A stretch of 64,000 bases of DNA, from positions 2,418,001 to 2,482,000 of the forward strand of contig CM120641.1 of NCBI GenBank assembly GCA_051362555.1. Direction: 5' to 3'. This stretch comes from Lingula anatina (taxonomy: Eukaryota; Animalia; Brachiopoda). The notes under the pieces are model-generated. The model did no database searches. It saw only the letters and a program-made list of their open reading frames with translations, and was not told the DNA's origin. Position numbers and translations under genes: made by a program. Of this stretch, positions 4,601 through 63,119 are shown in pieces. Numbering within the stretch: position 1 is the stretch's first letter; each line of letters starts with the position of its first letter.

Positions 4601-4953
4601 AATGAGTCGTCGTCCTTGTTGATTTTTAATATTTTCAACCCTGTTTTTTTTCTTGACACCCCTTCTCCACCTGTCTATCACACGTGGTCTTGGATGACAA
4701 GTGATCGCGGCGTCACGTGCTGCACTTGTCCCTTTTGTTTACATGGGAGTTCTTTGGGGAAAGGAGAACGGAATTATTCCTGCTGCGGGGACGAGCAAGA
4801 AAGTGAAGGGGGAATTTTGAATATCGAAAATGTTCTTACAGTAACCGTTAAAAACATCGCTTGATTTAGCAGTGTAGCTATTCTCAATAGCACGCAACAT
4901 CTAGAAAATTCACAGACGCTCCGTGATTTGATGATCACGCTGTAATTTTTAAG
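4440..4953 (+). promoter_or_regulatory. CpG-enriched putative promoter of the long SVIL isoform
   Basis: Local CpG enrichment against a CpG-poor background, two CACGTG E-boxes (4681, 4714; the second is GTCACGTG), followed by a strong donor AAG|GTAAGA at 4953/4954. Confidence 0.55.
4780..4953 (+). other. SVIL: Putative non-coding first exon (5' boundary approximate)
   Basis: Ends at AAG|GTAAGA immediately downstream of the CpG-rich region; an in-frame TAA just before the donor argues it is UTR. Confidence 0.45.
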
Positions 4954-20629: not shown

Positions 20630-21844
20630 ATATTCAAGGCAAGGATCTACAGACAGTAAAGATTCAGACAAGGGGTCAGATCGCTACAACTGGAGGTCAA
20701 GGATAAAGGAATATTCCACAGAGCAAGATGGTGGGACAGGGACTGGGACGCGAAAAAACAGGTCCACAGTAACCCCACCAAAAGAAACATTATCTTCAAG
20801 ACTTCGAGCTGCCAGAAATTCCAAGTCATCTTCAAAAACTGAAGAAAGTGCTGGACCAGAGAAACAGTCCAGTTTTCTAAGTTCTCGACGACGGCAAGCT
20901 GAATCGAGTAGAACGACAGGAAGCAGCAGTGCTGATGTTTCCAAGAGTTCTCGGGTTTCTCCGCCTTCTTCTGGCACCAGCGAGAGCTTGGGAACTCGTT
21001 CTACACGGGCATCACGAGGAATATCGTCAAATCACGAGAAGTCTACAAAGACTCGTGTTGGATCTTCGCATTCTTCTGTTGACTCAACAAACGAAGATAG
21101 TAAAGAGAAGGTTTCCAGTACATCATCTTCACAGAGGTTGTCTTCACAGCGGAATAAATCTAGGCCAGTTTCAGAAGTTGCTGAACATAATGGACAGGTG
21201 ACATCACTGAAAGATAATGCCAAGACTCAATCAAGAACAGCGACCACAACTAGACGTGACAGAATTAGCGACAGAAAATCTCAGGAGTCAGATTCTTCCT
21301 CTGATGTTGTAAAAAATGAAAACACTGTCATGACCAACTCTGAAAGCCGTACAGAGAGGAGGTCACGCTACAAAGATGAAGGTAAAAAGCCACTTTCTGA
21401 GGACTCTGATTCTAAACAAACAGTAGCATCTTCAGTTAAACATGGCAGCAGCAAAGCCCAGGAGTCAAATTCTTCATCAGATGTTTCAAAAAATGAAAAG
21501 CCAACACTGACTGAAGCAGAAAAAACTACATACTTTGACACAGAGAGCCGAGCAGAGCGAATGTCTCGCTATAAAGAAGAACGTAGAAAGCAGCTGGCAG
21601 CTGTGTCTACAAAGTACGGACCAGAGACAACGTCTTCCAGTGAACCTGAGGCAGGTCTGCAACCTTCCTACCTGCGATATTCTAAACGTTGGAAAAAAGA
21701 CAAAGAAAAAGAGGAATCAAAAGAAGAAAAACCTGCAGAAAAGTCCACAGATAAAAGCGAGATCACTGCCCAAGAAGACACACTTGAAGACAAGCCTGAT
21801 GAAAACCAGAATGTCAAGGTTTCAGTGTCCAGCGAAACTGACAG
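20630..21844 (+). CDS. SVIL: SVIL large exon, 1215 nt, phase 2-2; contains the conserved N-terminal motif ESRAERMSRYKEERRKQLA..KYG
   Basis: 415-aa ORF in the track; acceptor ttttcacag|, donor CAG|GTTTGT. The motif resembles vertebrate supervillin [22 protein letters not shown] (recalled from memory). Confidence 0.9.
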
Positions 21845-22624: not shown

Positions 22625-22650
22625 AGATGTCAAAAGATATAAAAAGTCAG
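22625..22650 (+). CDS. SVIL: Putative 26-nt microexon, phase 2-1 (R-DVKRYKKS-D)
   Basis: ctatttttaaccattcag| acceptor, CAG|GTGAGA donor; bridges the exon ending 21844 (phase 2) to exon 43508 (phase 1) without a stop. Confidence 0.6.
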
Positions 22651-22771
22651 GTGAGATACAGGTGCACTAGCTAATTAAACCAGATCCCCACCTCTCTACT
22701 GCTGTGCCTATGTGATTAGGAAGCAAAGCACAGACTTGCTTCATACTTGCTGCACACATTACTGGCAGTTT

Positions 22772-22796
22772 ATATCCCCCCACCAAGGAGGTTGTT

Positions 22797-22847
<51 letters not shown>

Positions 22848-22985
22848 TTGGTTAATAGACTAACTTAAAATGTTATGGATTGATTTTGATAAAAATGTCA
22901 GGATAAGTCAGAAATGGGCTTATTTAGATTTTGGCAATTATTTATTAATTGATTAATTTACAACAGTGAGAATTAAGCTGTCTCA
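22772..22985 (+). mobile_element. Decayed Helentron/HINE-like copy with internal (TTTA)n
   Basis: CCAAGGAGGTTGTTTT, (TTTA)n, GGATTGATTTTG..GTCAGAAAT..TTAGATTTTG..GAATTAAGCTG, collinear with the 19371 copy. Confidence 0.55.
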
Positions 22986-23953
22986 GGGTTTTTTTTTAGT
23001 GAATTCCTTGTATTAAAATTGCTTTTATTTGCTTTCATTGAACATCGTTTGTTTGCTTTTATGATGTTATTTACAAGCTATAATGTTTTATCTCAAAACT
23101 GCAATAATGATAGAGGCTTGTGTACAATGTCATTTGGTAGGGTAAAAAATTGGATGACAATTCTGTACAATGAATATTTCAGTCAACTTTTTTGGTTATC
23201 TTTAGTTATTTATTCTATAAAGCACAGCACATTTAACATCATGCTAAATTGCATGTACAAGATGAAAAAGGTGAAATATTGTTGGATGGGATTAGGGAGA
23301 GCACCTTTACCATCAGAATCTCCAGAATGTTTGCTAATTATGTTCTCCCGACTCCCCACTGTGGGTAGTTTTCTGCCTGTCTAAGCCTCTGAAATCTGCC
23401 TGTAAATACTAATGTTTGCTGCTCACTTACAGCACGGACTCCCCTTCACAAGGTTAATGGTAGTAACAAGCGGTGAACCACATCTACTTGGGGAGTTGTA
23501 ATTAATCAGATGTGACTACCTGAATGTTACACCTGGATAAATAGGTGACAGGTAGCAGGGAACATGACACACGCGTCCATTGCTGAGGCAGAGATTTAGT
23601 TGCTTTTCTTTTTTTCTTGGCTTGGTGACTTTTTCTGCCTGCCTGCCTGTCTTTCTCACTTCAGGTAGCAACAGCACCGTATCCCATTTCAAGTGGGAGA
23701 ACATTAAAAAGAAGTCGAGGCAAAACTCAGTTCTCCTAAAGCTTAGTTTGCTGTGTAAGCCCTCGCTGAGTTAACCCTCGCAGGCAGTTTACTATTAAAC
23801 CAGCCAGCTAGGAGCAAAGTAGATGTTTATTAGTTGTGAATGTTAAAAGACTTGACCTGGGATTGCTAGCAGTGGATTTTTTCTCTGAAAATAACTTATG
23901 ATGTGAGCACATGAGATACTAGCTGACTGTCTGCTAGCAGAAGAGGACTCGCA

Positions 23954-23964
23954 ATGGGGCACTG
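23954..23964 (+). CDS. SVIL: Putative alternative first coding exon (MGH-C), joining exon 28699 to give MGHCLSTK
   Basis: gcaATGg context, TG|GTAACT donor in phase 2; the spliced product fits the N-myristoylation consensus MGxxxS with Cys4. Confidence 0.5.
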
Positions 23965-26835
23965 GTAACTATGATTTCCTCTGGAGTGAAGGTTGGCAAG
24001 TTGATAGGAGACTCGATATGATGATTTGTAGCTGATGGTGGTATTTATTAAACAGAACAGACAAAAAATGAAACAGGAGTTGTGTGTGATTATTTAAGAC
24101 CATCTTTCCTGATCATAATATATAGTTATTGATGGGCTTTACTTCTTATGTAAAAAATAATCATCACAGTTGACTTTAGAAAGTGATATACTGTTGTTTT
24201 ATCATAACAACTGTAACATGCAATGGTAGACATGATATTTATTCTTGATACTTACTACAGCAATCAACCCAAAGGAGAAACATAATTATAAATCACTGTT
24301 GATAGTTGTTAAAAATGACGTTGACATGTTAAGTTGACATCTTTATTCTTCACTAGATAGCCCCTATTGCTTACTTTACACATGGTTCTGTTTTTATTTG
24401 GGGACAAGTTATTTGTAGCATTTGTATGTAGCAGTGTCATACATGGTCTACACCAACTTGTGCATGTAGGTATAATGGTAGTATTTTGAACTTGATGCCA
24501 AGTGAGATCATAGTTTTGATTAGTGTACAGAAAGGACTTAATATTTTAGTTTAGCAGGAAATAAGTGAAAAGTTGTTTGCTGCTCACTTACAACACGGTT
24601 GATGTTATGAGAGATTTATTTATTATTTTAATTTAATGAGTTTTTAAATATTTTTATTCATTTATTTATTGATTATTTTCATCATAGATTTTGCAGGGCA
24701 GTTTGTTCTTGTTGTACCTAGATAGTTTCTCCTTTATTTCAACAGTCAAATGGTGAATGTTTTGGTTTGTGGTTGGTTAGTTAGTGACAAAGTTGGTCTT
24801 ATTTCTCATTCAACTGCCTTTCTGTTTGTGCTTAGGTATATGTTCAGAAGCTTTAATGAGTTCAGTAAAAAAAGTTTTTATTTTGAAACTTTGGTGGCAA
24901 CTAAAACGGGCATTGTTTCATGTTTGTGAACTGTAACAAGAAGTTTACATTTCACTTTGAATTTTTTTAATGTTCCATGATTTATCAAAAGTCCAAAGAT
25001 GCTCATTTTCCCATAGGTTCAAAAATAACATGTAGCAGATTGTGGATTTTTTAAAAATTTGTTTCATAAATCACTGTTAAGATAAAAGATATTGAAAAAA
25101 GATATGTAAAAAAAATCCAACTTTTCAGTGTCAAATGTTAAACACTAGCTAATCCAGCAGGAGTTCTCAGCAGTTGCTGCTGCCAAATTGCACATAAAGC
25201 AACCACATGGAAAATACACATGGTTCTACATGCTGAAAACCGTTTTCAAGTATTATACACAGGTTGACATGATGTGTGTTTGAGCTGGCATTGTGGAGTG
25301 TGCATTCATTCCAGTCAGTTTCTTTGCATGCTAAAAGTCATCTGAGAAGTTTTGAGAGTCTGATAGCTTCTAGTTTTTGACAACAGGGTTGGTAATAACT
25401 TGCTGAATTTGAACAAAGCTGAAAAATACTATTTTAGAAAATTTGTTATTGCTTTCAGAAAAATATGGTGTGAAAAATCCTTAAGCTCTTGTCAAAAATT
25501 AATTTTTTTGTGATAAATTGAAAATACAAAAACTTGAAAATCAAGAAAAAAAATATTAGTAAGGAGTTTGAAAATTGTGATTAATTACCGTATCAGATGG
25601 GGTTGCCCTGCTTGTTGCAGGTTATATTCTATTATATCAATTTCTACCAAGAATGCCTGATGTTTGCTGATTACAGCTATTAACTGTCTTATCGGATTTA
25701 AATGTTATTTGAAAGAGTTGAGTAGAAGGTATGCCTCATCATGGCAGTATTTTATGTTAGGGTAATTTTTTTTCAGCTGGTTATTTTGCTGTAAAATCCT
25801 GGCTTCTGTTATCCTTGGTTACGGGGAAATGTTGAAATTGATTTAAAAACTAAAAAAGAAAGAAAAAAATGAAGACAGGGAAGCAGTTAGTATGTTTACC
25901 TATTTGAGTATATAGGCGGTGGAGGGGGTGGGGGCACTTGTTATGAAATAATTCTGGAGCATCAAATTCATGTGGGCTTCACCAGTTTTTAATCCAGCCT
26001 CCGAGGAGAAGAATGAAGGTATGAAATTTTTGATACTGCTCTCCAGATACTGGTCATCAAGACACAAACAAGGCTGCTATGGAAGTACTGCCTAAAGTCC
26101 TATTCATAACTTGTAGATCAGATGAAAAACAGAAAATGACCTTTCCAGCCATGTAAATCGGGTTAAAAAGGATCACCATCTGTTTAGCTCCCATGTTAAG
26201 TAATCTGGCTGCCTGATGAAGTAAGATTGCCTATTTATGATCTAATTTAGACCTATTGTGAATGTGATCCACCCATGCTCATGACTGCCTTTATGGACCT
26301 GTTGCTGTTCCTATACATGTAAACACAGCTGGACATTTGCAGTAATAACCCAAACTCCCTTTCACTGGGTTTTGTAGTTCTACCATGGACTAGGTCAAGG
26401 GCATTTTCATTGTAGTCTATCATGTCAAACCACAGGTATCACAGCTGTGCATATTTCTAGTTTTTCCAATTATTTCTTTTATGGGAAAGCATGCTAAGAA
26501 AAATGTTGTTTTGTAGTGTTCCTGTTATTCTTTAATATATAATATGTACATTAGCAATATGGCCACTCCCTTGACCTTATCAATATCAGTAGCAGTCATC
26601 AATTTGAGTTGATGTCATGTTAAAGGAGATCAGAATTTCAGTACAATATAAAAGTTATTTGTCATATAGAAATTGCCTTTTAAACTAAAACAGTATTTTT
26701 TGGGAGTCAACCAACATGACCTGTATTATTCTCCTTATAAACTGGTTCTTCATGAAAAAAATCTTCAAAGCCACTTTGAAGGGCAATATGTACAAGGAAC
26801 ATGTACAAGGCAACCCCAAGGCCAACAGCTGGCTG

Positions 26836-26868
<33 letters not shown>

Positions 26869-27695
26869 GATTTAATTATTATTTTTTAAAATATCTCACA
26901 GGACAAAAATGCGTACAAAATTTGCCAGTAAAAATATCTGTGATCATCCAGTGAAAAAAAAAAATGTGGCCCTGATAGGTAAATAATGGACTGTGTTAAC
27001 TGTGTATATATCTCTGTCTTCCTCAAACCTTCAAGGACAACAGTTGGGTTCTTCCATTACATTACAACAAGGACTGTATTTTAGCAACTTAATCGATCCC
27101 GTTTTAATGGCAGTTGTATTGAGTTACTAAGTCGTAATAAGGTGTAATCTATCACTCTGATAGATAGGACTACACCCCAATACACAAACCTCCAAACATA
27201 AAAAAGATTTACAATAAAGTTCCCATTCACAAACTTTTAAATTTAAACCATCATAAGATTCCAAAGAAAGTGATCTGATTACAGACTTCAAATAAAACGT
27301 GTTTTCCATCACAGACACATTTTCTTTAATTGCACTGTTGCGCCTGTTTATATCCCATGGTTTTCTGATTAAGCAGGTGTCCGCTTGAAAATTTGCACAT
27401 TGTGTAAATGCTTGTCTGTGATGATATATTTCAAACCATGGAGGTCCTTCCATGACATGTAGTCTTTCCAGATTGTTCATGTGTTTTGTCCAGTGAACAT
27501 TTTTGTCCTGTGGGGACTTTTGATTAAACAGGTGTCTGTTTACGCATGTGCACAATGCGAAAATGTGAAAATGTTCGTCAGTTGAGATATCGTTGTTGTT
27601 GTTGAAACCCTGGGAAGTATTCGTGTACTGGTGTACTGGCAGCCTGTGATGTATGAAATGTCAGCTTTCTGCTTGACTGGAGCAGAGAGAGGGTG

Positions 27696-27743
<48 letters not shown>

Positions 27744-28698
27744 ATGGATTATTTGAAGTGGCCAAATTTAGTATGAATAAATTAAGCATTCATTTACTTT
27801 GATATGATACTGAGAAAATTTTTTTAAAAGACCTTTTGTTAATTGATGTGTATGAAGGATGAAAGGATTTATTTGTATGGACATTTTAATCAACCATGGA
27901 AATTTAATTTAGTCAGGAATACTGCAGATGTTTTCCTAATATTAAAAAATTCGATTTACAGGATTTATTTTTTACATCTCAAGAATTTAACTGTGTATAA
28001 TATGGCTTAAATAGTCTGAACTAGACAAAACAAAACTGCAATGTTTAAATTTTCTTAAAACAGCATGAAAAGGTCTCATTGAAAGCGTGTCTAAGGAAGG
28101 AAATGATAAACCTTTATAGCTCTATATATTTTACCATTTACTTGATAGAAAGGGGAAAAATGAGAATTTACCAGATATACTGAGATTAACACCTGCTTCT
28201 ACCTGATAATAGCAATATGTATTAAGAGCTGATTTAACAACCACCCCTTAAGGACATAATAAGTTTATGGTTGTATGAACTGGAGACTTAACATGAAATT
28301 AGTAGTTTTTTGGTCTTGGCACACATATTGTTCTGTCAAAAGCAGTTGATAATGTTTCATGAATATGTATTTTTGATTAACCCTTGTATGGTGCAAAGAG
28401 CTCTTATTGTGATTTATGCCTAGAAGTAACAGTGGGAATTCCATAGGGAAATATACTTAAGTTCTGAAGTCATGAGGCATAGTTTTATATAGCTTTTCAT
28501 AGTGTAAGAAATATTTGAGTATCTTTGTATTAGATATAGACTTATGCATAACAAGGACTGATACATTAAATGTCCTCTTTTCCCAATATGTTTTTGAATG
28601 GTTAAATCTTCCAAAAACTGATGTTCTCTTCTCCGCTAATATAAAGATATTATCTGTGTTTTACTTTTAATGAAAATGTAATATTTTCCTTCTTTCAG

Positions 28699-29846
28699 TT
28701 TAAGTACCAAAAGCGAAAAGGCTAAGCGCACAGCAGACTCCTTAGTTGAATCAAGAAAAGAAATCATAGGAAGACGCAGAGCAGACGACAAATCAAAATC
28801 TTTCATCCTTGAAACCCAAAATGATGACTATTCACACAAAAACCTTGACGAGGAAGATAGATTAGGAAAAGAGGAAACAAAAGTGGTGGGAAAACAAAAC
28901 AAAGATTCTGTTTCAGAAGACATCATCCAAAGATCTTCCATTTCTGATAAGACATCTCCCTTGCCAAGCCCTTCTGAGGAGAAAGGACAGATCTCTTCTT
29001 TCAGAAGTGGATCTATCGGGAGGAAGAAACCTGTGGACAGTGACGTGCCTTCTGCCTTGAATTCCCACAAGATGGCACCAAGAGAGGAGCAAGTGATGGA
29101 GGAAGTCTCCTTACCATTCAAAAAGAGCTCTGCCACGGACACACCCAGTTCATTTGACAAGACCTCTCCAGAGCAAGGTCCAGACAAAACCTCAAAGACA
29201 AGTTCTCTTGAGAGAAAAACAGATAAGAGCAAACCATGGATGAGTTCTCTTGACAGACAGGCAGATAATGAGAGCAAGTCATCTCAAAATAAGAAAAGTG
29301 ACGCACCAGTTAGGAAGTTGTCAACGGAAAGAGAAAAGGAGAAAGATAGCACCAAGTTTTGGTCTATTGGAAGAGAAGCAAAAAAAGAAAACATTGATAT
29401 TTCTGGCAATAAACAAGCGATCACAAAGAGTGACAAAAAGTTGTCTGAGAGAAATTCTTCTGTAGAAGGTAGTAGAGAGAGTTTGAAGACAAAAGACACA
29501 TCCAAAAAAAGCAATACAATTACCAACAATAAGAACCTTATTGAAACACACATAACTCCTAGAGCTGAGAGTGCTAAAAAGCCACTTGAAAAGAGCATCT
29601 CCGCAGATGGCAGAGACATTGTAAAAGAAAAAGACACTTATAGCATACCAGACACACAACATTCTACACCTGACAAAAAAGCCAGTGAGAAAGATGAGGT
29701 GGTTCCCAGTGCTACTTCACCCGTAGATACTGGTAAAGAAAAGAAGACCAGGGATGCAGATGGTGTCCATCGGCATGTGAAGACCAGGAAGGACAAGAGT
29801 GAACAGCGTAAATCAGAATTAAACAAGTCTGAAGACTCTGTTTCTG
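28699..29846 (+). CDS. SVIL: SVIL large Lys/Ser/Glu-rich exon, 1148 nt, phase 2-1
   Basis: ttttccttctttcag| acceptor, frame open from 28700 through the 325-aa track ORF, donor CTG|GTAAGT. Confidence 0.85.
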
Positions 29847-30147
29847 GTAAGTTTTTCTAATGTGTTGTCATAAAAGGAAATTTACTTGCCTATTGTCAAT
29901 TTTTTTTTATTTTAAGTGCATTTTTTATTATACAGTCTTGGAAGATAATTCTTTAAGTAATGAATTCCCTTGTGAATCTGTTAAATGTCATACCCAGACT
30001 GAAGCCAATGGTTCTGTCCATTGGAAAGGTTGTTAATTTCCAAACCTGCAGGCATAAAAGCCATGGCTATGAGAAGTATTTTCACTCAATATTTTTGAGT
30101 CTGACCTTTCTTACAGATGGGTTAAGAAGTGTTGAAATCCCAGCACT

Positions 30148-30150
<3 letters not shown>

Positions 30151-30237
<87 letters not shown>
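30151..30237. repeat. (TG)n microsatellite
   Basis: Directly visible. Confidence 0.97.
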
Positions 30238-30241
<4 letters not shown>

Positions 30242-31199
30242 GTGTGCATGAGTTTGTGTGCATACACACATTAATTTTTTAGAGTTTTTTATCTTTCAAT
30301 TTTTATGTTGTTACACTTCCTTTCATAGGTGTTATAAAGATATTTTTATCTCATATCACTGGCTGACTGATGTTTAAGTATTATGGATTTCTCAGAAAAG
30401 AAGTTTTTATTTAAAAATTGTGTGAGTACTTGGATGCCCTCCAGTTCCGAAGCTTGAGGTAAAGATTGAAATTGCAGATGTTAGCTTTTCTTTGACATGA
30501 TGATGCTTAAAGTTGCTGTTTTATTTCAACAAAATAGCCCAATCAAAAGTCAGCATTTTTTACTGAATAAAAAAAGGTGTGGATATCTGTTTGTTAATTT
30601 GGCATAACTTTTGCAAAAATGTCACTAAACTATGGTTAGCCAAATGGCAAGCAGGCTAGCAAGGTCAGGTGAGGTAGAATGTGCCCATAGCAGACATGAC
30701 ACAGTTGCAGCAGGCTTAGTTTTTTTTAAACCAGTCTGATTGCAGTTGTTGTGCTTCATTCACTTTGTACCCTGTACACAATGGGGACTCTCAGATAGGG
30801 GTGAATGATACCACTTGTACAAAGTTCCACTGCTGAGATTTCTTTCAAATATTTGAATAAAAAGAATTTACTTTTGTTAATGCCAAGAAGAAAAAATGAG
30901 ACACGGATTTAATTTTCAAAGACATATAGATATATAGATGTATTTCATGAAAGTTCTACAGGTTTATTTTTACTCAAAGTGGACTTAGGTATTCAGTATT
31001 TAAGTTTAGACCAACTTTTCTCTTCAGACGTTCATTTAAGGTTGCTTCATGTCCTGTTGTATAAACCTGACTGGATTTCTCCTAGTTCTGTTGTATAAAC
31101 TTGAACTGTTTCACTAAGCTGTTCCAAGTTCTGTTATGTCACCTGTACCCGCCTTCCACAAAAAAAAACAAAAAACAAAACGTAAATGTTTTAAAAAAC

Positions 31200-31623
31200 C
31201 CTGATGTAAACCTGTTCCCCTGTGTGGGTACCTGATGTACCAGGTGTGGTGGGTATAGACCTGATGTAAACCTGTTCCCCTGCATGGGTACCTGATGTAC
31301 CAGGTGTGGTGGGTATAGACCTGATGTAAACCTGTTCCCCTGCGTGGGTACCTGATGTACCAGGTGTGGTGGGTATAGACCTGATGTAAACCTGTTCCCC
31401 TGCGTGGGTACCTGATGTACCAGGTGTGGTGGGTATAGACCTGATGTAAACCTGTTCCCCTGCGTGGGTACCTGATGTACCAGGTGTGGTGGGTATAGAC
31501 CTGATGTAAACCTGTTCCCCTGCATGGGTACTTGATGTACCAGGTGTGGTGGATATAGACCTGATGTAAACCTGTTCCCCTGCGTGGGTACCTGATGTAC
31601 CAGGTGTGGTGGATATAGACCTG
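31200..31623. repeat. 60-bp minisatellite, 7 near-identical copies
   Basis: Unit CCTGATGTAAACCTGTTCCCCTGCGTGGGTACCTGATGTACCAGGTGTGGTGGGTATAGA with 0-3 substitutions per copy. Confidence 0.97.
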
Positions 31624-34594
31624 TCACCGTGCCAAGGTTATCTATGACAGCATTACCTGCCTTTAACACAGTGGAGATAACAGTAGGAGGTCAGGCCAGG
31701 TCGGGTATGTTTTATACTTAATGGTACAAACTTTTGCTAGGTTTTGTAAATCGCAGGCGTAGGTACCAGGTAAATAGTCTGATAAAAGGTCACCAAGGTG
31801 TGTGATGTTGATACCATGTTGTTACTGTCAGCCACCATCCTGGCCCTGCATCAGTTACATCAGATGATGTAGACCACACAGGCTGCTGCAGAAGAAAGTC
31901 AGTTTTTTTCTTGAAAGTCAGATTTTTTTTCTAGTTGAATGTGATCTGTTATCCAGAATTAACACTATTTTAAAAAAGTTTTGTTTATTGTACAGAGTAT
32001 TCTGTTCTATTTTGAGTAACATGATAACCCACCAGTGATATCACTGTGATAAACTGTAATACTGGTGTCCCAGAAGTTTATTACACAAACTGTTATATTT
32101 TCCACATGGGACACTTGTGTATCACCCCTCCCATGACTAATGGAGGTCTCTCACTCTGTGGTGCATATATAGTCTACCAGGGGATCAGCTGAAAGATTTA
32201 TGTTCTTAACCAGGGGAGCTTATCTCAGGTAGAAAGTGATGACAGGTAAGGATATTTTTGTTTCAAATTACGTCACCAAAGCCAGTCTAGTTAATTATCA
32301 GGTGCACTGCCTGAGTCTAACCAACAAGCGGACGGCCTGGATACACTGACAGATTTAACGCAGAGATTTACAAAACGGGCGGAGGCCTTTGGTTTCTAAG
32401 GTAAATCTTGAAGCTACTTTAACACACTTGGGTAATTGACAGTGTACTGGGGTAATTTATATGTCTATTTTGTGTCACTGTTGTCACAAGGTGTAGGTGT
32501 GATTTATTATGGCTCTCCACGGGACAGAAATAAAAGGTCTTATTGTCTGTTTGTTGGCGTGTCCTGTGTCAACATCTTGGACCTAACTGATACTTAACTT
32601 AGTCTTGAAGTATTGTTTTATCTCTTGACCGATACCAGGGTCTCAGGATGAAAGTTTGGTATGTGGTATGTATGTATTTATACACGTACATTTTTTTACT
32701 ATAGAATGACTGTGAACAGGGAAGTGCCTTGTGGGTCCTTTTGTTAAAATCGTGACTTTGAAGAAGGTCAGGTCACAAATTCTTTAGACACAAAAGGAAT
32801 ATCTAGTATTGCTGGGTATTTTTAGAGGTTGATTTAAGATTTTTTACCTCTGTGTTTGGATACATGGGGAATGTATTAGGCACCCTGACCAGAGGAGCTG
32901 GAGCAGGGTTAGGATCACTTTGCCCATGTATATGTAAGTATAGTGTACAGTGAAGGTGCTGATCACACCCCTCAGCCATTACAGTGTATATAGTCCTTCT
33001 GTCTATTGCATCAAACTGTTAACTAGGAGGTTGGGCTTTACCTGCTTGTGGAAGGTATGACTATGGAAAATATGTTGATTTCTTTTGCATTGGAGATTTT
33101 GTTATTGATATCATTTACTAGGTTCTTGATTGGTTTTGTATAAAAATTAGTTATTGAGTTGAGCAGAAATAAAACTAGATGCAAGTGAACCCAAGAAGTC
33201 TTTTTCATATAATGGCAAGATTAAAGTGAAATATCATTTGGCCCAAGGTTAGACAATGGTGATAGTTTAAGATTAATGTTTTTGAAGAAAATATCAAATT
33301 TATAAGGATGAAACTAAACTTTGAAAACTGTGATTTAGATTCATGATTTTGAAAAAAAAAACCTAAAGAGATTAATTCAAAAATGAAACTAACTTGATTT
33401 AATTTTGAGGAAAAAACATGTTGAGGAAAAAAACAAATGCATAAAAAAAGATATTACTCCAAAGATGAAAACCACTGATGACTGTGTTTGTGATCAGGTT
33501 GATAGTTATCTCTCACCTCCCGTGATATTTGGCATTTATACCTTGTTTTCTGTTCCCCCTGCATCCTTCTGGGTCAGTAATTTTGTGAGGAAAGAAACAG
33601 GAGTAGATGAGTTCCTGTAGAATAGCCTGCGGTTCTCCCTGCTCCTATTCCACAGTATGGTGTCTGCGGTTACAGGCTGTGTATACACATAAATATATAT
33701 CATCTCTTTGTGACTGTCCTCAACAATAGGGAGGATGCACTTAACACCATTCAACGCAACAAAAACTCTCCTGTTGTTTGCAGTAGTAAGAGGCGGTAGT
33801 AGACTCAGTGAGCTTCATTGATGGGCTATTGTATTTTGGAGGCGGAACCAAGATGTGTATTTTGGGTCCATAAGCATGGGAAATGCCTTTGTGGCCAGAG
33901 ATGTGACTGGGACGTGTGTTTATTAGCGGATTATGCAAGTGCGGTCAACTGACTTAGTTTTCCGTCCAAACACTACATTTTGATTTACGTAGGAAAACAT
34001 GCTTGTGAACTGAGGAATCTTTTTCGGGGGTATTATTATTCATGTGTAGCTGACTAAGTTGGGTTTCCAGTACTTAGTGTGCCATACAAATACCAAGTCA
34101 TGATTTGTGGCACAGCTTACCTGTGAGCCTGAATCATAACTGTTACAGCACTTTATCACAGATTTTGGAAATACAACAGACTTTTTTTCTTCATCTTTTC
34201 CAAACAGTGGCTTTAGTTTTTGGAAATTGGTTATTAACCCAAGGACCATGTCCCACGGATTATGAAGGCGTGTCGGACATTATTATAGCTACTGAAGTTG
34301 TGTTTTGTGATGGAGAATATTTCTTTAAACAAAAATTCACAGAGGGTACAAGTGCAGCTGACTCAGCCTTACTTTCCGGTATTATGAGGTATTAAGAACC
34401 ACTTCATAGACTGAGAAAGAGAAACTGACTGACTCAATTAATTCTTGGATGCCGAGGTTAGGAGTTGTACCATAGTGAGCTATACTTCTAAAAGATCAAC
34501 TGGCTCACCTGTGGGGAAATCATTAGGATGAAAAGATCCTATGTTAGTAAATAAAATGGCATCACAGAAATAGACTTAGTCCAAGATACAGAAG

Positions 34595-34676
34595 ATGGAG
34601 CTGGATAGAGTTGCATTAACCGTTGTTTGGACTTTCGTTTTGGCTATTTTGGGTGTTTTGGTATGGTTTGTGAAAG
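34595..34676 (+). CDS. SVIL: Putative alternative first coding exon encoding a transmembrane anchor (MELDRVALTVVWTFVLAILGVLVWFVK-D)
   Basis: aagATGg context, 27 codons with 21 consecutive uncharged, mostly hydrophobic residues, strong donor AAG|GTTAGT in phase 1 matching acceptor 43508. Confidence 0.7.
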
Positions 34677-34718
34677 GTTAGTAGATGCACACACATGAAT
34701 ACATGCATGTGCACGCAT

Positions 34719-34719
<1 letters not shown>

Positions 34720-34765
<46 letters not shown>
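34720..34765. repeat. (CA)n microsatellite
   Basis: Directly visible. Confidence 0.95.
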
Positions 34766-34766
<1 letters not shown>

Positions 34767-35614
34767 CTATGTAGGTAGGCTTTATCCTGGTTAAATACAC
34801 TATTAAGAGCATGAATATAGTATCACAAAGTCTGTTACGGGACATGCTATAACTTAAACTGTGGAAATTTTAAGTCTTAAACAGTCTTGTTCACTGTAAT
34901 CATGTTACTACTAACAAACATTGTCATCACGGTGCCATATTGTATCGGAAATTTTAAAATCACAATCAGGGTTATCTGGTGACATGGGGGAGGGTGAGGA
35001 CAGTCTTATGAAATGAGTCTGTCTTGGTAATAGAATATATACACTTCAGACCCTTGTCATCATCCAAAATTTTTATTTACTTTTTCATAAGTTTTTGCTA
35101 GATTCTTTAACAATTAATTAATAATTTAAAAGTTGATTGATGGAGAATCAGAATTCAAATTATCTTATTCTAAAGCAAGCCCCAGGTTTTTCATGCTTGA
35201 ACATGCTCAAAATCTTTTTCATAAGTTTTTGGTGAATACTTTATATGTACAGTAAGGAAAAAAGCCTAAATTCTATTTTTCTCTCTAGATGTAAATAAGA
35301 AGTACATCCTGTTTGGAAGGCTATATTTATTCTTGGTTTACCTGCTCAATCTCCCTGGTATTCTAGTAACCCATGAAGTTTGTAAACACAGCTCTCTCTT
35401 TACATGATTACTGACTTAAAAAGGAGGGTGTTTCCTTCTTAATCAAATATCAGGTGCTCTCCTCTGAGATATATGGGCAAGTTCTTTTACTCTAATGGAT
35501 AGGGCACTGGTAAGTTATGTTACCTCACTTGACACAAAAATTATTATGGACGTTTTACATTTTAAAGCAGACTATTTATAATATATTTTATTTATTTGTA
35601 TCCTATTTCAATAA

Positions 35615-36593
35615 GGCCACACTTTTTTAATTTTATGGATGACATCCTGCGCGCGCACGGATTTTCGCCCGTTCTCAAAAAAAAAAAAAAAAAAACAAAA
35701 GCCCCCCCCCCCCCCCCCCCAGCCCCCAACGAAGTCGGTTGTCGCAAACGTTGTTATTGAATTTGCAAGGAAATGAGCTTTCTGCGCATGCGTATTTTCG
35801 CCACGTGGAAATGCGGCCACTTTGCTGTCAAATTCATCTCTAGGATTACTTTCAAATTACACAACAATAAAAGTCATAAAGAGAACGGGCGCCATCGTTT
35901 TGGATTGGTATGCCATTGATATTGGGCATGGAGATATCACCTTTTTACAATTGTGCGAAAGGCTGGCGGCGGCCGAAACATTTCTGTGACATTCTGTATA
36001 AAGCAGCACATTAATACCAGGTTTTCTGTAGCGAAAAAAGGGTCGACAAGGGCGTCGAGGTATTTGGTGGGCTGAAGGTCGGACAGGCCACCTGACAGTT
36101 TAGCTGCTTCGTGTGAGTTGAAGTTGACAAAATGGCATCGTCTGAAATGACCTTTAATAGATTTGGTAGTATTAAGCATATCTTTGCATCATTTTTTAAA
36201 CATTTCTGTGAAGTGTTCAAAATGTTTTAATATTCTGAGAATACAAATAAAGACACACTGTTTGATTGATATTTGTTTTATTGATTGCTATACCAAATGA
36301 ATGCATGAAATAACCTTAAATAGATTTGGTAATATGAAGTATATCAATTCATGACTTTTTTTACATTTCTACGAAGTATTCACAATGCTTTAATATTTTG
36401 AGAGCATGGATAAAGACATATTGTTAGTTTGATACGTGTTTCTGTGGTTAAATTTGTGTTTCCAGCTGTGTACTGACAGCATTCCTTTACTTAAGCAGTT
36501 TTTTTTTTTGGACTGTTTTTTTTTTTTTCGCCCTCTCGCACCGATTTTGGGGTACCCAGAGGATGTCATCCATAAAAATAAAAAAGTGTGGCC
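35615..36593. mobile_element. Non-autonomous PIF/Harbinger-type DNA transposon, 979 bp
   Basis: 34-bp TIRs GGCCACACTTTTTTA(A/T)TTTTATGGATGACATCCT with one mismatch, TAA on both flanks (35612-35614, 36594-36596), CpG-rich interior, no transposase ORF. Confidence 0.9.
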
Positions 36594-36778
36594 TAACATC
36601 TTTTCAAAAATGGACAATTTTCTCTTTCTGTATATTGATGAAATGAAGGAACAGGGTGATAACAATGTCAAAAGTTGGGTTCAGGTCAATTTTGTCAAAC
36701 ATCTGTCATAGTGATAAACACTAACATCAGGAAGTATACATTTAATTGCACCCCGCCCCCCTTATGTAGTCTTTCTAT

Positions 36779-37034
36779 GACCCCATTCCCATACCTGGAT
36801 CAATCTAGCAGGATCGACCCATCTCTGAGAGATTTCTCGCTAAATTAAATTCAGTTTAAGTGGCTCTGATGTCTGGCACACCGACTGAATCTGTTAGGGG
36901 GTAATTAACTATTGTTTAGCTGCTTCAGTAGGCATGCCAGACATGTAAGCTGCTTAATTCGAATGCAATTTAACAAGAATCCCCGCGGAGATGGGTCGAT
37001 CCTGCTAGATCAATGTAGGTATGGGAATGGGATC
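36779..37034. mobile_element. Fold-back (whole-length palindromic) MITE, 256 bp
   Basis: Left arm GACCCCATTCCCATACCT..CTAGCAGGATCGACCCATCTC pairs with the right arm along nearly the full length; TAT on both flanks. Confidence 0.85.
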
Positions 37035-39284
37035 TATGATCCCATGGTTCAGTATGATGACGGGGTAAATGGAGTGATTGTTTAACAGGTAAGATTGTAA
37101 GCAAGCTACAACACCTGGAAATCAGAACTAAATCATTAAACTAAACCAATCTGAAGCAGTTTCAGGCATGTTATGCAGTATCAGGTCCCTTATTACTAGT
37201 CATTTGTGCAGCCATTTTTAAAAAATTGAACAGATTTTGTCTATTTTAGTGCAATCATAGTTGGATAAACCCATGACCTAGGGCATAAACCATGCCATGT
37301 TTTCTTTGATTCTTTACAATAAATGGTGACATTAATTATATGTTGGTCCTAGTGGTAACAGACAAACTTCAGTAGCTTGTTTTTTGTATTTGGACTAAGT
37401 TTTTAACATTGTTAAGCTCTCTAATTTGCATAAGATTTGAGGTGGGATGTTGTAGTTGTCTGGCCAGACATGAAAAAATGAAGTTAGACAAGTTGAGAGC
37501 AACTTCTTATGTTTTTTTTTTTTTTTTTTTTTTTTTCCGCAGTTTGTTTTATACTCCAAAGGTATTCATTAATATATGTTACCATTTTATCATTAATTCC
37601 AGCTGGTTTGTAAGGAAATAGCAAAATGCAAGGTGATCCATGCCTCTCTCAGGACTGCAAAATGAGTGTTTTCAGTGCTTTTTATGATGCTATCAATTTT
37701 AGGAAGTTAATTTTCACTTACGTGATGTTCTCAGTGAAAATGAGAATATTAATGTCATGTTAAGAAGTAGAAAGAGGGTTGGTAGACTTAATGGCCTGCA
37801 GACACGCTAAGACCAATCTTAAGAATAAATAAGTTGAGATGAGAAGCAGTTTATGATGTGACTTGCGAACATTAACCAATTCTTCATATGATTACCTGTA
37901 GTTTTTTTAATAGAACAGAACTTAATACTTGGTAGATTTCTCCCTTTTTTCCTTTCTGAAAAAGATAACATCTGGTGTGTAAGAAGCCACTGTGAATATT
38001 TGATCATATGTGTCTCTTCGAACCTACCACAGCTGCTCTCGGAAAAGTCCAAGCATTCAGCGGAACATCTGTGTACAGAAATATTTATGACGGGATGAAG
38101 AAACATCCACGATATGACAGCGCTGTGTGACTTGCTCGACTGGTTGAGGTGCGGGAGGAACTGTCCATGGGGAAAAGGATCGTATATCTCCTCTATTTAA
38201 TGTATTGATTAGGCAAGCAGAGGTCTAGGTACTGGCTTAGTGAGAGGTGTGTTTTAGGTACTGTATGACCACTTGCTTTGAGCTGTCCTGTGACAGCCTG
38301 TCAGACCATAGAAGTTCTTCATGCAAACCTCACCTGGTAATCTTGATACATTGTATCTGTCACTGGAAGAAGTAACTGCAGGTATTGATTGGTATGATAG
38401 TCTGGCTGATGTTCAGGTAATCAGAGATCGGAGATCACTTAATGAAGACGGTGACTTTTTATGAAGCCATAGGATATCTTGCAAACTTAACTGCAATCAA
38501 GATCTGTCCCCTGGGAGTGATAGTTCCACTATAGGTATTGATCAGTTTGCCTGTTGATCAGAAATGAAGGTTCTGTCAATTATGAACTGTGTGGAACTCT
38601 TCCATTAGCCTGGACAAGATCAAGTTGGAACACTTACACTCACTGATAACTGTGGAAGATATCTCCACATGTTCAACCATTAAGACAAACAGACATCAAG
38701 TGAGAATGAAACGGGAGACGAAAGGCATCATACTGCTACATTTTAATGTAAGGGTTTTAATTAATTGATGCCACACAACGATTATTACCCTGAATGGTTA
38801 TTCATCAGTTGCCATTTTTACCCCGAGAGTTTGCCATTTTTCATCTGATAATCTGTAGCAGCATTGTATGCCACCTGCTATGAGATGGAAAAAATATACA
38901 ATAAAAGGAATCGAGTATTGATTGTAAAGACTATAGAGCAGAGTTAGGTTACATGACGGCTATCCAGACTTGGAAATGATTTCTTGGAGCTAGGGTTAAC
39001 GTACAGCAAATGTGAACTGCCAGGAGACAAAAACTATGTGGAGAAACCAAAGAAGATTGACACAGCCAAGAAACTAAGAAAAAACTGGTGTCCATGGTAA
39101 CTGTGAGATATAATATATTTGTGCTTAGAGTCGAATTGTTGTTTGAGAAAAACCAAGGAAAAATACTAACAGTGAAGAAGCTTCTTAAGCATTTGGGAAA
39201 ACTTCAAGAGAAATTTTAGGAAAAGAGAGAGCAGGAACAAGTCTAAGGAGGCTACAAACTGAAGAACAAATTGTACCAAGAAAA

Positions 39285-39348
39285 ATGATGCCCACTTATC
39301 CAGGGCCATGTTCTGTAATTTATGTATCTACCTACATTTGGAGGCCAA
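39285..39348 (+). CDS. SVIL: Putative alternative first coding exon (MMPTYPGPCSVIYVSTYIWRP-N)
   Basis: aaaATG after a long purine-rich UTR-like stretch, 21 open codons, donor CAA|GTAAGC in phase 1 matching acceptor 43508. Confidence 0.5.
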
Positions 39349-42291
39349 GTAAGCAAAGTTTTATCTCTCTGTGAACACCCAAGTAAGCTTTCAAATTAGA
39401 TTTCCTCTCTGTTTCCTGCTACTACAAAAGCAGGGTTGGCAATTTAAGTGGTCACCCTTATCAATTTTATAGATAAATTGTTAATGAAAAAGTTACAAGC
39501 TAAAATTTTTACTTTCTAAAACAAACCGATAAGGTTTTAACTTATGGTAAAGCAATTTTTCATAACCCTCTGTCAGGCTCGCCGTGGTATAACGTGTCTG
39601 TTAACTTAGTTGAATCCACAACTTGCATCCTTTCAAATCCAGTGGTGCATGTTTTATCAAGTTGCAGGAGTTCACCTTAAATGTGGTTATTGAGTGATGC
39701 TGAGTAAAGTGTTAGGATAACAATACTGCTGTCTTACCACTTTAGGAATGGTTTTATATAAATGTGTGGAAGTATGTGTGTGTGTGTGTGGCTACAATAA
39801 ATCTTCTCTATGTACTTAGGTTTAGATTAAAAATTGTATCATAATTTATTTAAATGTGCATTTTTGTATGGCTTATTATTGTACATTTTAAGTTATGATA
39901 AGATATGGGTAGTGTTGCCCCACTCCAGGTCATTTGGCAATGAATCATGATATTTCTATGGATTATCACACACATGCATGCACGTGCGCCCACACATACA
40001 CACGGGCGCACACACACATTGTCCAAGCATATTTAATTCTGTGATGTTTTACACACATTCTCTGATATCTGCTAGTATTTTCTAATTCTTTAACAGAGTG
40101 GAAAGAGTGGTTATGTAGATTAAGGTGGAGTAAGCTTGTATAATGCTGTCACCAGATGAAACATAAGGTTTAATGATATTGGACTTGCCACAGCTGGGAG
40201 AATTATGAAAGCTTCTCTCTTGTATAATATCTGTCCGTCTCGATTGCTTTAAAAAAATAGCATTTCCCAATGCATCTAACCAAGATTTTCATTTTACCTG
40301 TAAGGAGTGAAAAATTGTACAACCATGAGCAAGGTCTTTTAAGGGAGGGACATTTATGAGCAGATTGAGTATTTTAATGATACAGTAGAACACAGTTTTA
40401 TTTATTCATTTCATTCAGAAATTCCGCCTTCAGCTTCCTTTTTCCAGTTTGGATCAGATATTCCCTCTACCATCAAAAACGTTTTTTGTTGTTGAAATGC
40501 ATTTATAACAGAATTTCTGTAAATTATATGGTAGAATTAGGCTGACAGAGAAGATGATATATTCAGATATGTATACAGGGCATAAGTGACACATTAAATA
40601 TGACCCTGTTCATTAATTTTGTATTTATATAAACAAAGACTGGTTTAAAAGATAATAAACTTTTAATTTTTTAAAATAAAGTTGTGTCCTGAGTAGATCC
40701 TAATTTTTCTGGGATGTACCAATTGTCCCATATTGAACAAGTCATTTTCTTGTCCCATGAGAATTTAAAAAAGATTTCTCTTTGTTTGACTCTAATCAAG
40801 CCCCTTCAGTAATTTTTTGTCTTTTGAGAAATCAGAGATGATGATGAATATTGCATAAGTGAGTGGTGATTTATTCAAGTGAAGGGGATTATTCAGTGTG
40901 TAAATTTATTCAGCACTGCAGGTAGATTTGGAGTCCAAAGCAGTGCACCCTGAGGCTCAGAATCTTTCATTAATTTCCAAACCAGGAAACGGGGAGGTGT
41001 CTTTTTTACCCTCTTACAAGCACCAACCTGAGAAATGGCATAGAATCTATGTAAAATTTTGATTCAGATTGGACCTTACTGTTCCTGCCTATATGTCCAT
41101 GCTAAAGCAGATCACCCTGAATGTCACAATCTTTTATCAGTCTTATGGTTATTGTCACCAGAAGCAGTAGGCTGTGTAACTCAGGGTTGCAGTATAGAAC
41201 TGTGTCATATCGTATCACAGTGAGTAATGAGGCGTGATGAGTTGACTGTGTTCAGGTGGCATAAGGAATAAGCAGGTGTGTCTTTGCAGGGTTTGTTTCA
41301 GTTCACTAGTTTGAACATGGTAGTGAAAGAAGCAGGTGATTTTAAGGACATGATTCTGTGATTTGTTCCTAGAAATGTGTCATGGCATGGAATAGAGGCA
41401 GAAAGCAAAGCTGGACACAATCCTGTGAAGTTGTGTGTTATTAGGTCATGATTCCAAGAGGTTTTCTCATTTCTCATCTTTTTTAAACAACTTGGATTAC
41501 TCTGCATGTGGAGACATTTGAAATGAATTCTGAGAGGATAAGCTGCGGAAAGATTGATTCCAAAATATACTCTCATAAATCTCAAACAGTGGAAGATTTA
41601 TTGTCAATTATTTAACAATAGGATGTCTGCATTAGATGATCCTATGGCACAAACGAAATGCACTTCTTGGAGAAATAATGTTCATCAGAGATCATTGTCT
41701 TGAAACCCTTAATATACAAACCTGTGTTGAGATAGTTATCAGCAGACAAAGTGTTCATGTGACTAATACTGGAAGTCTGTCCTGGAAAAAACCAATATAC
41801 ACCTTATACTGCTTCACAGAAAAAGCTATGACCAACAGACAATAGAATGATCTCAATAGGTAGGTAACAAACCTGATGGATGGATCAGAATTATTGAAGG
41901 TGGGTTTCATCTGAAAGAGGTGGATGAAGATAGATAAGATGGATTCTTATTTCCAGGTGCCTGATTTAATTCTGTTTTATCTTTGTAAAAGTATAGACCC
42001 CAGACTCAAAGAAAAAGGACAAGGGTATCAATGTTATGTGGTGCATTTGGAATTGCCATCTTGATTCTATAACAAAGTCAAATTAATGTGATCAGTTTAA
42101 TTGATCCCACCGAACCTCCCTCTTGCACCTTTAAGTTTTAAAACCATTTAGAGGTATACTGTCTGGGATTTTTTTTTCTGCCAAATAACATTTTCTTAAA
42201 AAAAACAACAATTTTTCTCCTACTCGTGAATCATTGCTTAACCCATCCATGCACTTGGACTCGATGTTTTATATAATCACTTATGAAATAA

Positions 42292-42293
<2 letters not shown>

Positions 42294-42355
<62 letters not shown>
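42294..42355. repeat. (TTA)n microsatellite
   Basis: Directly visible. Confidence 0.95.
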
Positions 42356-42358
<3 letters not shown>

Positions 42359-43507
42359 TAGCAAATAAATATACAATCTTACAGCTTTTGGCCTATGAAT
42401 CACACACACACATACACTTACATACTTGGACTCTCTTTCTCTCTCTCAGTAAAAAAAGGTTGAACAGTAACAGTATTGTATAAAAGGGTACAAGCAGAGA
42501 TTGGCAATTCATGTTGTTAACCTCTTATGAAATAATTTAGTTATAGTAGTCTAGTCTCAGAAAGAAATACTGACATCAGGCACTTTTGTTATAGAGGTTT
42601 ATCATTGTTAAGGTCTGGATTGGGAAAGTTAAGTAGCTGTAAATATGCAAGATCTGTAGAAAAAATATGACTTTGAAGCATTAAAAAAAACTGTCTTAGG
42701 ATCAAGTAAGTGACTGTTTGCCCCTGAATCCTCTTATTTTTGTGAAATAATTGAAAAAACTGCTAACGGAAACCACGACAGTTGAATTGGTCTCCTTGGA
42801 AGAATTTCATTAGAGAAATTGTATTACGTCTGTCAGTTGACAAATGGTGCATCTCGTGGGATCTGAATTATTTCTGCATCAGCTGGATTGTCTGGAACAG
42901 ACAGACTCAGACACACTTTGGTTGCTAGCCTACTATTTTAATTACCAGGTACAGCTCGAATGTGTCCCTGAATAGTGGCAGTCAAGAATTGATAAGACTG
43001 CTGGGGTAGGCCTAGCCTGCTAGGGTAGTCGTAGCCTGCTATGGTCGCTGTAGCCTGCTAGGGTTGCCAATCTGTATTCACTACACACACATGATATATT
43101 GCAGGGTGTATGAGTGCTAGCTCTGTTGTTCTTGTGATTTGACATGTGTATAATCCATGAGCATAGGTTTCTTTAACAATTGAATTACTTTCCCTGCCAT
43201 CTCTGGTTTATTAACAATAGGCCAGTATCTGTACCACGGCAATGCCAAAAAATCACTCGCTTTTGCCAAAGATTGTAGATGTAATTCTGCGTGAATACTA
43301 CAGAAGCACAGTGGTACAGTAACCCTTATGACCCAGGCTAGGCTAGCAGACTGGGCTTGACAGTACACCTTTTGTTTGTATGGATTTTAATAATAGACTT
43401 CAGAGAGTGAGCTGCAGTTTTCCAATCAGGAAAGGACTGTCAAATTCTCCATTTTATATCTGCCACACACAGACATCTGATATGTAAGTTATCCTTTCTG
43501 TTTGTAG

Positions 43508-43662
43508 ATTTGAGTAGAAAAGGCAGTGATGACAATGAGGCCAAACCACGGAGAAGGGTAACGAGTCAGCAGGCGAGAGGCAGCAGAAATAAGACGCAGC
43601 CAGTGACCACAGAGGAGCTGCAGCAGGCTGAGAGTATCAAGGAAGAGAATAAGGCTGAATTG
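43508..43662 (+). CDS. SVIL: SVIL exon, 155 nt, phase 1-0; likely first common exon (LSRKGSDD...RNKTQPVTTEELQQAE...)
   Basis: cctttctgtttgtag| acceptor, TTG|GTAAGG donor, supervillin TQPVT motif. Confidence 0.9.
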
Positions 43663-43682
43663 GTAAGGGGAGTCTCATTAAG

Positions 43683-45725: not shown

Positions 45726-45887
45726 CCTATCTATTCAGACGCCCCGCGCTCCTCTAGCTTCCATCATTTTTCCAAGTCAATCGAGGATGTGATGAAAAGG
45801 CTTGAAAGCAAAACCCAAGCAGACGCCAACCATGTTGGCCCTCACAAACCTCCTGCTGAAGTTCAACACATGATTAAAAGTCACAAG
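45726..45887 (+). CDS. SVIL: SVIL exon, 162 nt, phase 0-0 (PIYSDAPRSSSFHHF...MIKSHK); possible cassette
   Basis: Long polypyrimidine acceptor, AAG|GTAATT donor, open frame. Confidence 0.8.
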
Positions 45888-63053: not shown

Positions 63054-63119
63054 TGGACTAGAAGGAAAACATGTTGTTTATTACATGATAACATACTTTT
63101 TTTTTTTCGCAACCTCCAG

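What the first reader, a model, noticed from the sequence alone, without database searches (positions are those of the whole stretch)
22625..43662. Predicted N-terminal membrane-anchor switch: alternative first exons converge on one common supervillin exon
Seen: four phase-compatible routes into acceptor 43508. These are the long soluble N-terminus via the microexon, MGHCLS plus exon 28699, a transmembrane exon at 34595, and MMPTYPGPCSVIYVSTYIWRP at 39285. Established: dystonin and plectin use alternative first exons for targeting (dystonin-a2 transmembrane, dystonin-a3 myristoylated), whereas vertebrate supervillin is described as a peripheral membrane protein. Inference: promoter choice selects soluble, lipid-anchored or integral-membrane forms of this actin scaffold. 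I do not know of this being described for supervillin. These short exons are absent from the ORF track.
Basis: partly seen in the sequence, partly recalled or inferred. Interest (0 to 1): 0.88.

Follow-up and report, generated by a model that had tools for sequence, protein, structure and literature searches.

The report
Supervillin with switchable membrane anchors
This invertebrate gene for the actin-binding scaffold supervillin splices at least three different upstream exons onto one shared exon, and it likely uses separate promoters to make versions that start with a myosin-binding arm, a predicted fatty-acid anchor or possibly a membrane-spanning helix, a pattern also present in predicted gene models of molluscs, ribbon worms and an acorn worm.

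Summary
The window holds the N-terminal part of a lophotrochozoan (probably molluscan) supervillin. All four claimed routes into acceptor 43508 have the stated splice sites and open frames, but phase fit alone is chance (14 candidates against 11 expected). The transmembrane and MMPT joints were not listed; the MGH and microexon joints have no direct read test. Relatives support the design: Littorina and Patella models carry a 4-residue Met-Gly start joined to an internal exon, as predicted here. Of 50 distinct N-termini in 15 invertebrate genera, 5 have a myristoylation motif and 2 a transmembrane helix; 0 of 82 vertebrate proteins do. The short forms drop the myosin II site. Verdict: alternative 5' exons are real, lipid anchoring is likely, the transmembrane form is plausible but unproven, MMPT is unsupported. 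It works like dystonin a1/a2/a3; my searches found no such description for supervillin.

The parts
20631..21844 (+). Exon A of the long form; holds the myosin II-binding-type motif (about 21537-21611); ends phase 2
   Evidence: ORF; splice sites; tblastn to mollusc supervillins at 21537-21674; RY-x3-RR motif aligned with homologues; no read test
22625..22650 (+). Predicted 26-nt microexon (phase 2 to 1) that would bypass exon B
   Evidence: Good acceptor and donor (score 7.1), frame open; not evident among loose ends at 43507 in X4 or X7; unconfirmed
23954..23964 (+). Predicted 11-nt coding end of a first exon, Met-Gly-His plus a split Cys codon; Ser6 comes from exon B
   Evidence: same build in Littorina X4 and Patella X5 models; no read test
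28699..29846 (+). Exon B, large hydrophilic exon ending in a conserved RKSxLN motif; main input to 43508
   Evidence: Joint 29846->43508 in 31 (X4) and 20 (X7) reads; motif in the longest model of 13 of 15 genera
32300..32400 (+). Non-coding 5' exon (5' end unknown); in-frame stop just before its donor, so translation would start downstream without an anchor
   Evidence: Joint to 43508, 4 reads, 3 starts, GT..AG, run X7; stop codon; first in-frame Met at codon 74 or 169 of the shared part
32864..32933 (+).
   Evidence: Joint 32933->43508, 4 reads, 2 starts, run X7; only one of 14 candidates with a myristoylation motif
34595..34676 (+). Predicted first exon coding a 27-residue signal-anchor-like helix
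   Evidence: Hydropathy 2.56, 1.5% by chance; A at -3 and G at +4 of the ATG, 1 basic residue before and 4 after the helix; about 2 sense reads in its bin in X4, no joint listed
39285..39348 (+). MMPT candidate exon; unsupported
   Evidence: Hydropathy 0.56; no joint, reads in X1 lie mostly past the donor
43508..43662 (+). Shared exon C with a KTQPVT motif; phase-1 acceptor on which the 5' exons converge
   Evidence: Reads on both sides; matching junction and motif in nemertean models
45726..45887 (+). In-frame cassette exon, joined to exon C in X7 and skipped in X4
   Evidence: Loose end behind 43662, 14 reads in X7; 9 reads to 48291 in X4; frame; its 3' end is predicted
48291..49693 (+). Next shared coding exon D
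   Evidence: Joint from 43662 in X4; tblastn to mollusc supervillins

Best explanation
This supervillin gene splices at least three different upstream exons onto the shared exon at 43508, and it likely runs from several promoters whose first exons give the same predicted actin-binding body either a long myosin II-binding arm, a predicted myristoyl-plus-palmitoyl anchor, possibly a transmembrane helix, or no anchor. Shown: the joints from 29846, 32400 and 32933; open frames; orthology to supervillin; the myosin-type motif lies only in exon A, upstream of all short starts. Inferred: (1) the far promoter gives exon A, then B, then C, a soluble form tied to the cortex through myosin II and actin; (2) a promoter before 23954 gives Met-Gly-His-Cys completed by exon B to a Gly2/Ser6 signal (probability about 0.85 that the exon is real); (3) a promoter before 32864 gives a second Met-Gly start with two Cys (about 0.7 that it is translated so); (4) a promoter before 34595 gives an uncleaved N-out, C-in signal anchor that leaves the scaffold in the cytosol (about 0.6); (5) the 32400 leader gives an anchor-less short form. 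Promoter choice would thus swap myosin-based for direct membrane tethering.
For: Read joints. The read-supported 32933 donor is the only one of 14 candidates with a myristoylation motif. Littorina X4 and Patella X5 have 4 unique residues starting Met-Gly, joined to an internal exon that supplies Ser6; in Littorina that exon ends in the same RKSxLN motif as exon B. Short unique starts join 4-11 residues after RKSxLN in Littorina, Gigantopelta, Tubulanus, Lineus and a Mya model. 13 of 15 genera have more than one N-terminus; 5 of 50 distinct N-termini have the strict motif against 9 of 924 internal Mets (p 1e-4; p 0.017 if 3% is assumed) and 2 of 50 have a helix against 0 of 904. Myosin site spacing R107/Y108, R112/R113 (PMC3842989) matches exon A. 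Precedent: dystonin a2 and a3 (PMC3352950).
Against: No joint from 34676 or 39348 in 4 runs, though only X4 and X7 had useful depth and 6-25% of each run was read. The two new joints rest on 4 reads each in one run, one with only 2 start places. No transcription start was located. The 23954 exon has no read test. Its His at the residue after Gly is excluded by the PROSITE pattern as I recall it, and the 32864 start has Gly, not Ser/Thr, at the favoured position (PMC5492501). First-exon peptides show no evident sequence likeness across taxa beyond Met-Gly-x-x-x-Ser (read by eye), transmembrane starts in relatives join other exons than C, and 8 of 15 genera showed no anchor by my cut-offs. Relatives' isoforms are predicted models whose own RNA support I did not see.
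Confidence: 0.7

Rival explanations
1. Lipid-anchored starts are real but the transmembrane and MMPT exons are chance intronic frames; the gene has soluble and acylated forms only.
For: No joint for either exon; a helix of hydropathy >=2.0 arises in 8% of simulations and once on the 64-kb reverse strand; no relative has a helix joined at the C junction.
Against: At its real score (2.56) chance is 1.5%; good start context and an in-frame stop just upstream; about 2 sense reads in its bin in stranded X4, whose neighbouring bins are near zero; helical starts occur in Tubulanus and Ptychodera models.
Confidence: 0.35
2. The minor 5' exons are low-level promoter noise: one main transcript (A, B, C) makes a soluble supervillin and the rare joints give little protein.
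For: Exon B supplies all 31 listed reads into 43508 in X4 and 20 of 28 in X7; relatives' long models include the exon B end; exons A and B are phase compatible.
Against: Anchor motifs are enriched among relatives' N-termini and the 4-residue Met-Gly start recurs in two distant gastropods; the rare joint picks the one motif-bearing candidate.
Confidence: 0.2
3. The hydrophobic exon is used, but as a cleaved signal peptide or a degradation-bound product, and the short forms matter mainly because they lose the myosin II site, not because of anchors.
For: All short starts lie downstream of the myosin motif; several relatives' short starts carry no anchor (Gigantopelta, Lineus, Littorina X5/X6); net flanking charge is 0 on both sides of the helix.
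Against: The helix fills a whole 19-residue window with 4 basic residues behind it; secreting an actin scaffold makes little sense (inference).
Confidence: 0.1

Closest known systems
Dystonin/BPAG1 a1, a2, a3 (spectraplakins)
   Same: One cytoskeletal scaffold gene with several start sites giving a short actin-binding, a transmembrane or a myristoylated N-terminus (PMC3352950, passages).
   Different: Unrelated protein family. Here the anchors are predictions, and the short forms also drop a myosin II-type site.
Vertebrate supervillin / archvillin (SVIL, SV1-SV5)
   Same: Orthologous: colinear N-terminal motifs, myosin II site spacing, gelsolin and headpiece domains in the matching mollusc protein.
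   Different: Described as a peripheral, not integral, membrane protein (PMC2140202, passages); isoforms arise from internal splicing and a muscle-specific 5' leader, with an N-terminus common to SV1 and SV2 (PMC6192639, PMC7447519, passages). 0 of 82 vertebrate (mostly fish) proteins retrieved had an anchor motif; these were cluster representatives, not all isoforms.
Predicted RefSeq isoforms of invertebrate supervillins (Littorina XP_070186681, Patella XP_055959080, Mya XP_052813198, Mercenaria XP_053386342, Tubulanus XP_074660484, Ptychodera XP_070569858)
   Same: Short unique N-termini with Met-Gly motifs or a helix, joined to internal exons.
   Different: Peptides differ from the window's; the bivalve Met-Gly starts join near the far N-terminus and the helices join other exons; the record names I saw make no mention of anchors.

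Membership tests
Supervillin | C-terminal gelsolin repeats and villin headpiece | tested here: inconclusive
   Not found in the six window exons scanned, presumably beyond the window's end; present in the best full-length match P0007, which is colinear with the window at 5 places
Supervillin | N-terminal myosin II heavy-chain site (R107/Y108, R112/R113 spacing) | tested here: met
   RY-x3-RR in exon A, aligned with mollusc and fish proteins; residues from PMC3842989; binding itself untested
Supervillin | Repeated T-[QL]-P-[VI]-T motifs of the N-terminal and middle region | tested here: met
   Exon C and downstream exons and homologues; their role in actin binding is recalled, not tested
N-myristoylated proteins | Gly directly after the initiator Met | tested here: met
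   ATG 23954 and ATG 32864, if these ATGs are the starts
N-myristoylated proteins | Ser/Thr at position 5 after Met removal (PMC5492501) | tested here: inconclusive
   Met for the 23954 start (Ser from exon B); not met for the 32864 start (Gly, allowed by the PROSITE pattern as recalled)
N-myristoylated proteins | Modification shown on the protein | not testable with these tools
   Needs labelling or mass spectrometry
Type III (N-out) signal-anchor proteins | About 20 hydrophobic residues near the N-terminus | tested here: met
   Hydropathy 2.56 over 19 residues from residue 8
Type III (N-out) signal-anchor proteins | More positive charge behind the helix | tested here: inconclusive
   1 basic residue before, 4 in the 15 after, but net charge 0 on both sides
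Type III (N-out) signal-anchor proteins | Exon transcribed and spliced; helix not cleaved | tested here: inconclusive
   No joint listed in 4 runs; no cleavage predictor on hand
Dystonin-type multi-promoter N-terminal switch (works like, not a member) | Several 5' exons joined to one shared coding exon | tested here: met
   Three joints into 43508
Dystonin-type multi-promoter N-terminal switch (works like, not a member) | Separate promoters and start sites | tested here: inconclusive
   No start pile-up at these exons table 6; depth too low and the libraries are not capped-end

The most novel reading that the evidence does not exclude
Promoter-selected membrane anchoring is an ancient feature of bilaterian supervillin: fixed internal splice acceptors act as sockets into which lineages plug unrelated myristoyl, palmitoyl or transmembrane first exons, trading the myosin II arm for a direct membrane tether. 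This locus carries all classes at once, and vertebrates lost the anchors or have unnoticed ones, which would bear on how supervillin grips membranes.
Probability: 0.4. Interest if true: 0.78.

Novelty: new variant of a known kind. Interest (0 to 1): 0.6.

Why it matters
[quoted passage not shown] If invertebrate supervillins choose between a myosin-binding arm and a lipid or helical anchor by promoter, the same scaffold could be sent to different membranes in different cells, as dystonin is. It gives short, testable N-terminal signals and a reason to look for overlooked first exons in vertebrate SVIL, a myopathy and cardiomyopathy gene. The mechanism class is known, so the surprise is moderate and specific to this family.

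Tried and rejected
No whole genome is held for the window. A word-based homologue search with exon D among 820-2340-residue proteins found nothing; the protein atlas gave no usable hit; Pfam on 6 window exons gave only below-cut-off hits. The run search listed no indexed RNA holder, only 9 raw-read runs by species label; 4 of the 9 were laid, on 31700-43680 only, so the Met-Gly-His, microexon and A-to-B joints remain without a direct read test. A solved-structure search was mis-framed and dropped. Rejected: phase compatibility as evidence; MMPT as a membrane anchor (hydropathy 0.56); amphioxus as proof that junction C itself is conserved (three short starts converge on one exon with a similar motif, but RKSxLN lies far downstream); Octopus alignment to exon C (poor); Mactra (1.89) and Biomphalaria (1.25) hydrophobic starts, below my 1.9 cut-off and not counted. 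One frame test used a coordinate off by one and was redone. Literature searches (listings only) showed no paper on anchored or first-exon-switched supervillin; the library lacks most subscription papers and I opened no supplements.
Full report
Identity. The window has no complete domain of its own. A profile search with the exon at 53630 returned 19 proteins; the one full-length hit, P0007 from the bivalve Potamilus, has gelsolin repeats and a villin headpiece. It and gastropod, bivalve and octopus supervillins align in order along the window. The window therefore holds the N-terminal part of a lophotrochozoan, probably molluscan, supervillin on the + strand; the C-terminal domains would lie beyond base 64000.

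Sequence check. All claimed splice sites exist, and all routes are stop-free through exon 48291-49693. Phase fit is uninformative: 14 ATG-to-phase-1-donor candidates occur in 29.9-43.5 kb against 11.2 in 200 order-4 Markov simulations. What is not common by chance is the content: a helix scoring 2.5 or more appeared in 1.5% of simulations (8% at 2.0), and a Met-Gly motif in front of acceptor 28699 in 5.5%. For that test I relaxed the recalled PROSITE pattern to allow His after Gly, after seeing the sequence. The MMPT peptide scores 0.56 and has no anchor signal.

RNA. Nine raw-read runs with the same species label were listed; 4 were laid on 31700-43680, reading 6-25% of each. In X4, 31 reads entering 43508 carry the end of exon B (29846) with agreement 1.0; in X7, 20 reads with 0.99. 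X7 also shows joints from 32400 (4 reads, 3 starts) and 32933 (4 reads, 2 starts), both GT..AG. The 32400 exon has an in-frame stop just before its donor, so it is a leader; the 32933 exon codes from ATG 32864 a start MGNVLGT with two later Cys, the only one of the 14 candidates with a myristoylation motif. No joint was listed from 34676 (transmembrane) or 39348 (MMPT); the listing threshold is 3 reads. The bin with the transmembrane exon has about 300 sense letters in stranded X4 and about 316 in X7; X4 has a similar patch in plain intron near 37.7 kb, so this is only suggestive. X1 reads near the MMPT exon lie mostly beyond its donor. X1 and X2 barely express exon C, and 60 loose-end rows were not shown, so a minor microexon input cannot be excluded, though the high agreement argues that it is rare in X4 and X7. 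Downstream, exon C joins 48291 in X4 (9 reads) and a cassette at 45726 in X7 (14 reads). The locus upstream of 29846 has no read test, which leaves open whether exon B is fed by exon A, by the Met-Gly-His exon, or both.

Relatives. Two further searches and two cluster listings (some clusters shown only in part) gave isoform sets. Littorina X4 and Patella X5 have 4 unique residues (MGAG, MGAW) joined to an internal exon that supplies Ser6, the same build as predicted for ATG 23954 on exon B. In Littorina that exon ends in the RKSxLN motif that also ends exon B. The motif is in the longest model of 13 of 15 genera (the amphioxus match is probably not the same site), so exon B is most likely internal to the long form as well. 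Short unique starts join 4-11 residues behind the motif, at the junction matching 43508, in Littorina, Gigantopelta, Tubulanus, Lineus and a Mya GenBank model. Taking one genome per genus, 13 of 15 genera have more than one N-terminus; of 50 distinct N-termini, 5 match the strict myristoylation pattern (Littorina, Patella, Mya, Mercenaria, Branchiostoma) and 2 have a helix (Tubulanus 2.61, Ptychodera 2.41), against 9 of 924 and 0 of 904 internal Mets. The internal-Met control understates the rate at true N-termini; at an assumed 3% the motif excess has p 0.017. Single-model genera and partial models were left out of this count. The helices join other exons than C, and by eye the first-exon peptides do not resemble each other. 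None of 82 vertebrate proteins retrieved had either signal. All these isoforms are predicted models.

Mechanism. The myosin II site of bovine supervillin needs R107/Y108 and R112/R113 (PMC3842989, passages). Exon A has the same spacing in a segment conserved with mollusc and fish proteins. Every short start lies downstream of it. I infer that a far promoter gives a soluble, myosin-binding form, and internal promoters replace that arm with a myristoyl and palmitoyl anchor (ATG 23954, about 0.85 real; ATG 32864, about 0.7), a signal-anchor helix (about 0.6), or nothing (32400 leader). MMPT about 0.25, microexon about 0.45. Lipidation, topology, start sites and tissue pattern are untested.

Comparison. 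Dystonin a2 has an N-terminal transmembrane domain and a3 a myristoylation motif, from different start sites (PMC3352950, passages): this works like it but is unrelated in sequence family. Vertebrate supervillin is peripheral (PMC2140202, passages), and its isoforms differ by internal exons and a muscle 5' leader (PMC6192639; PMC7447519; passages). The myristoylation consensus is from PMC5492501 (passages); PMC13364712 (passages) lists supervillin among short-motif actin binders. Seven searches (listings) showed no report of anchored supervillin; coverage is limited to open papers and no supplements were read. An earlier unchecked AI note (e1-7497458) proposes a membrane-anchored short form in arthropods by donor read-through, a different device; I did not test it and do not count it as support.

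Verdict. Observation partly confirmed, interpretation partly supported and extended by two routes seen in reads. New variant of a known kind; interest 0.6.

Noticed in passing
window 35614-36594: About 980-bp element with 35-nt terminal inverted repeats (97%), covered by many divergent reads with loose ends at both termini: a MITE-like multi-copy DNA transposon between the transmembrane and MMPT candidates.
   Followed up: partly
window 36779-37034: 118-nt inverted arms (76%) 20 nt apart with multi-copy reads; probably a second small hairpin element.
   Followed up: no
window 45726-45887: In-frame 162-nt cassette exon joined to exon C in X7 and skipped in X4; it supplies an earlier Met for the leader-only form.
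   Followed up: partly
window 48291-49693 and 63092-63838: About ten [SG]ILK motifs (counted by eye), with similar repeats in P0007. SILK is a PP1 phosphatase docking motif (recalled), so the protein may be a multivalent PP1 scaffold.
   Followed up: no
window 30668, 32245, 34993: Strong phase-1 donors (scores 8.2, 8.4, 6.0) with an in-frame ATG upstream; possible further first exons. No joint was listed for the two inside the read-tested stretch.
   Followed up: partly
window 33700-34499: Depth of 1.5-3 in X7 upstream of the transmembrane exon; may be its leader or unspliced RNA.
   Followed up: no
window 31200-31623: Minisatellite of 7 copies of a 60-nt unit, 97% alike.
   Followed up: no
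P0261-P0295 (Branchiostoma models): Three unrelated short starts converge on one exon that holds an RYSTQPV motif, so convergent first exons also occur in amphioxus supervillin.
   Followed up: partly
window 4501-5000: CpG-rich patch (observed/expected 1.23) in a CpG-poor window; could mark a far promoter or a young repeat.
   Followed up: no
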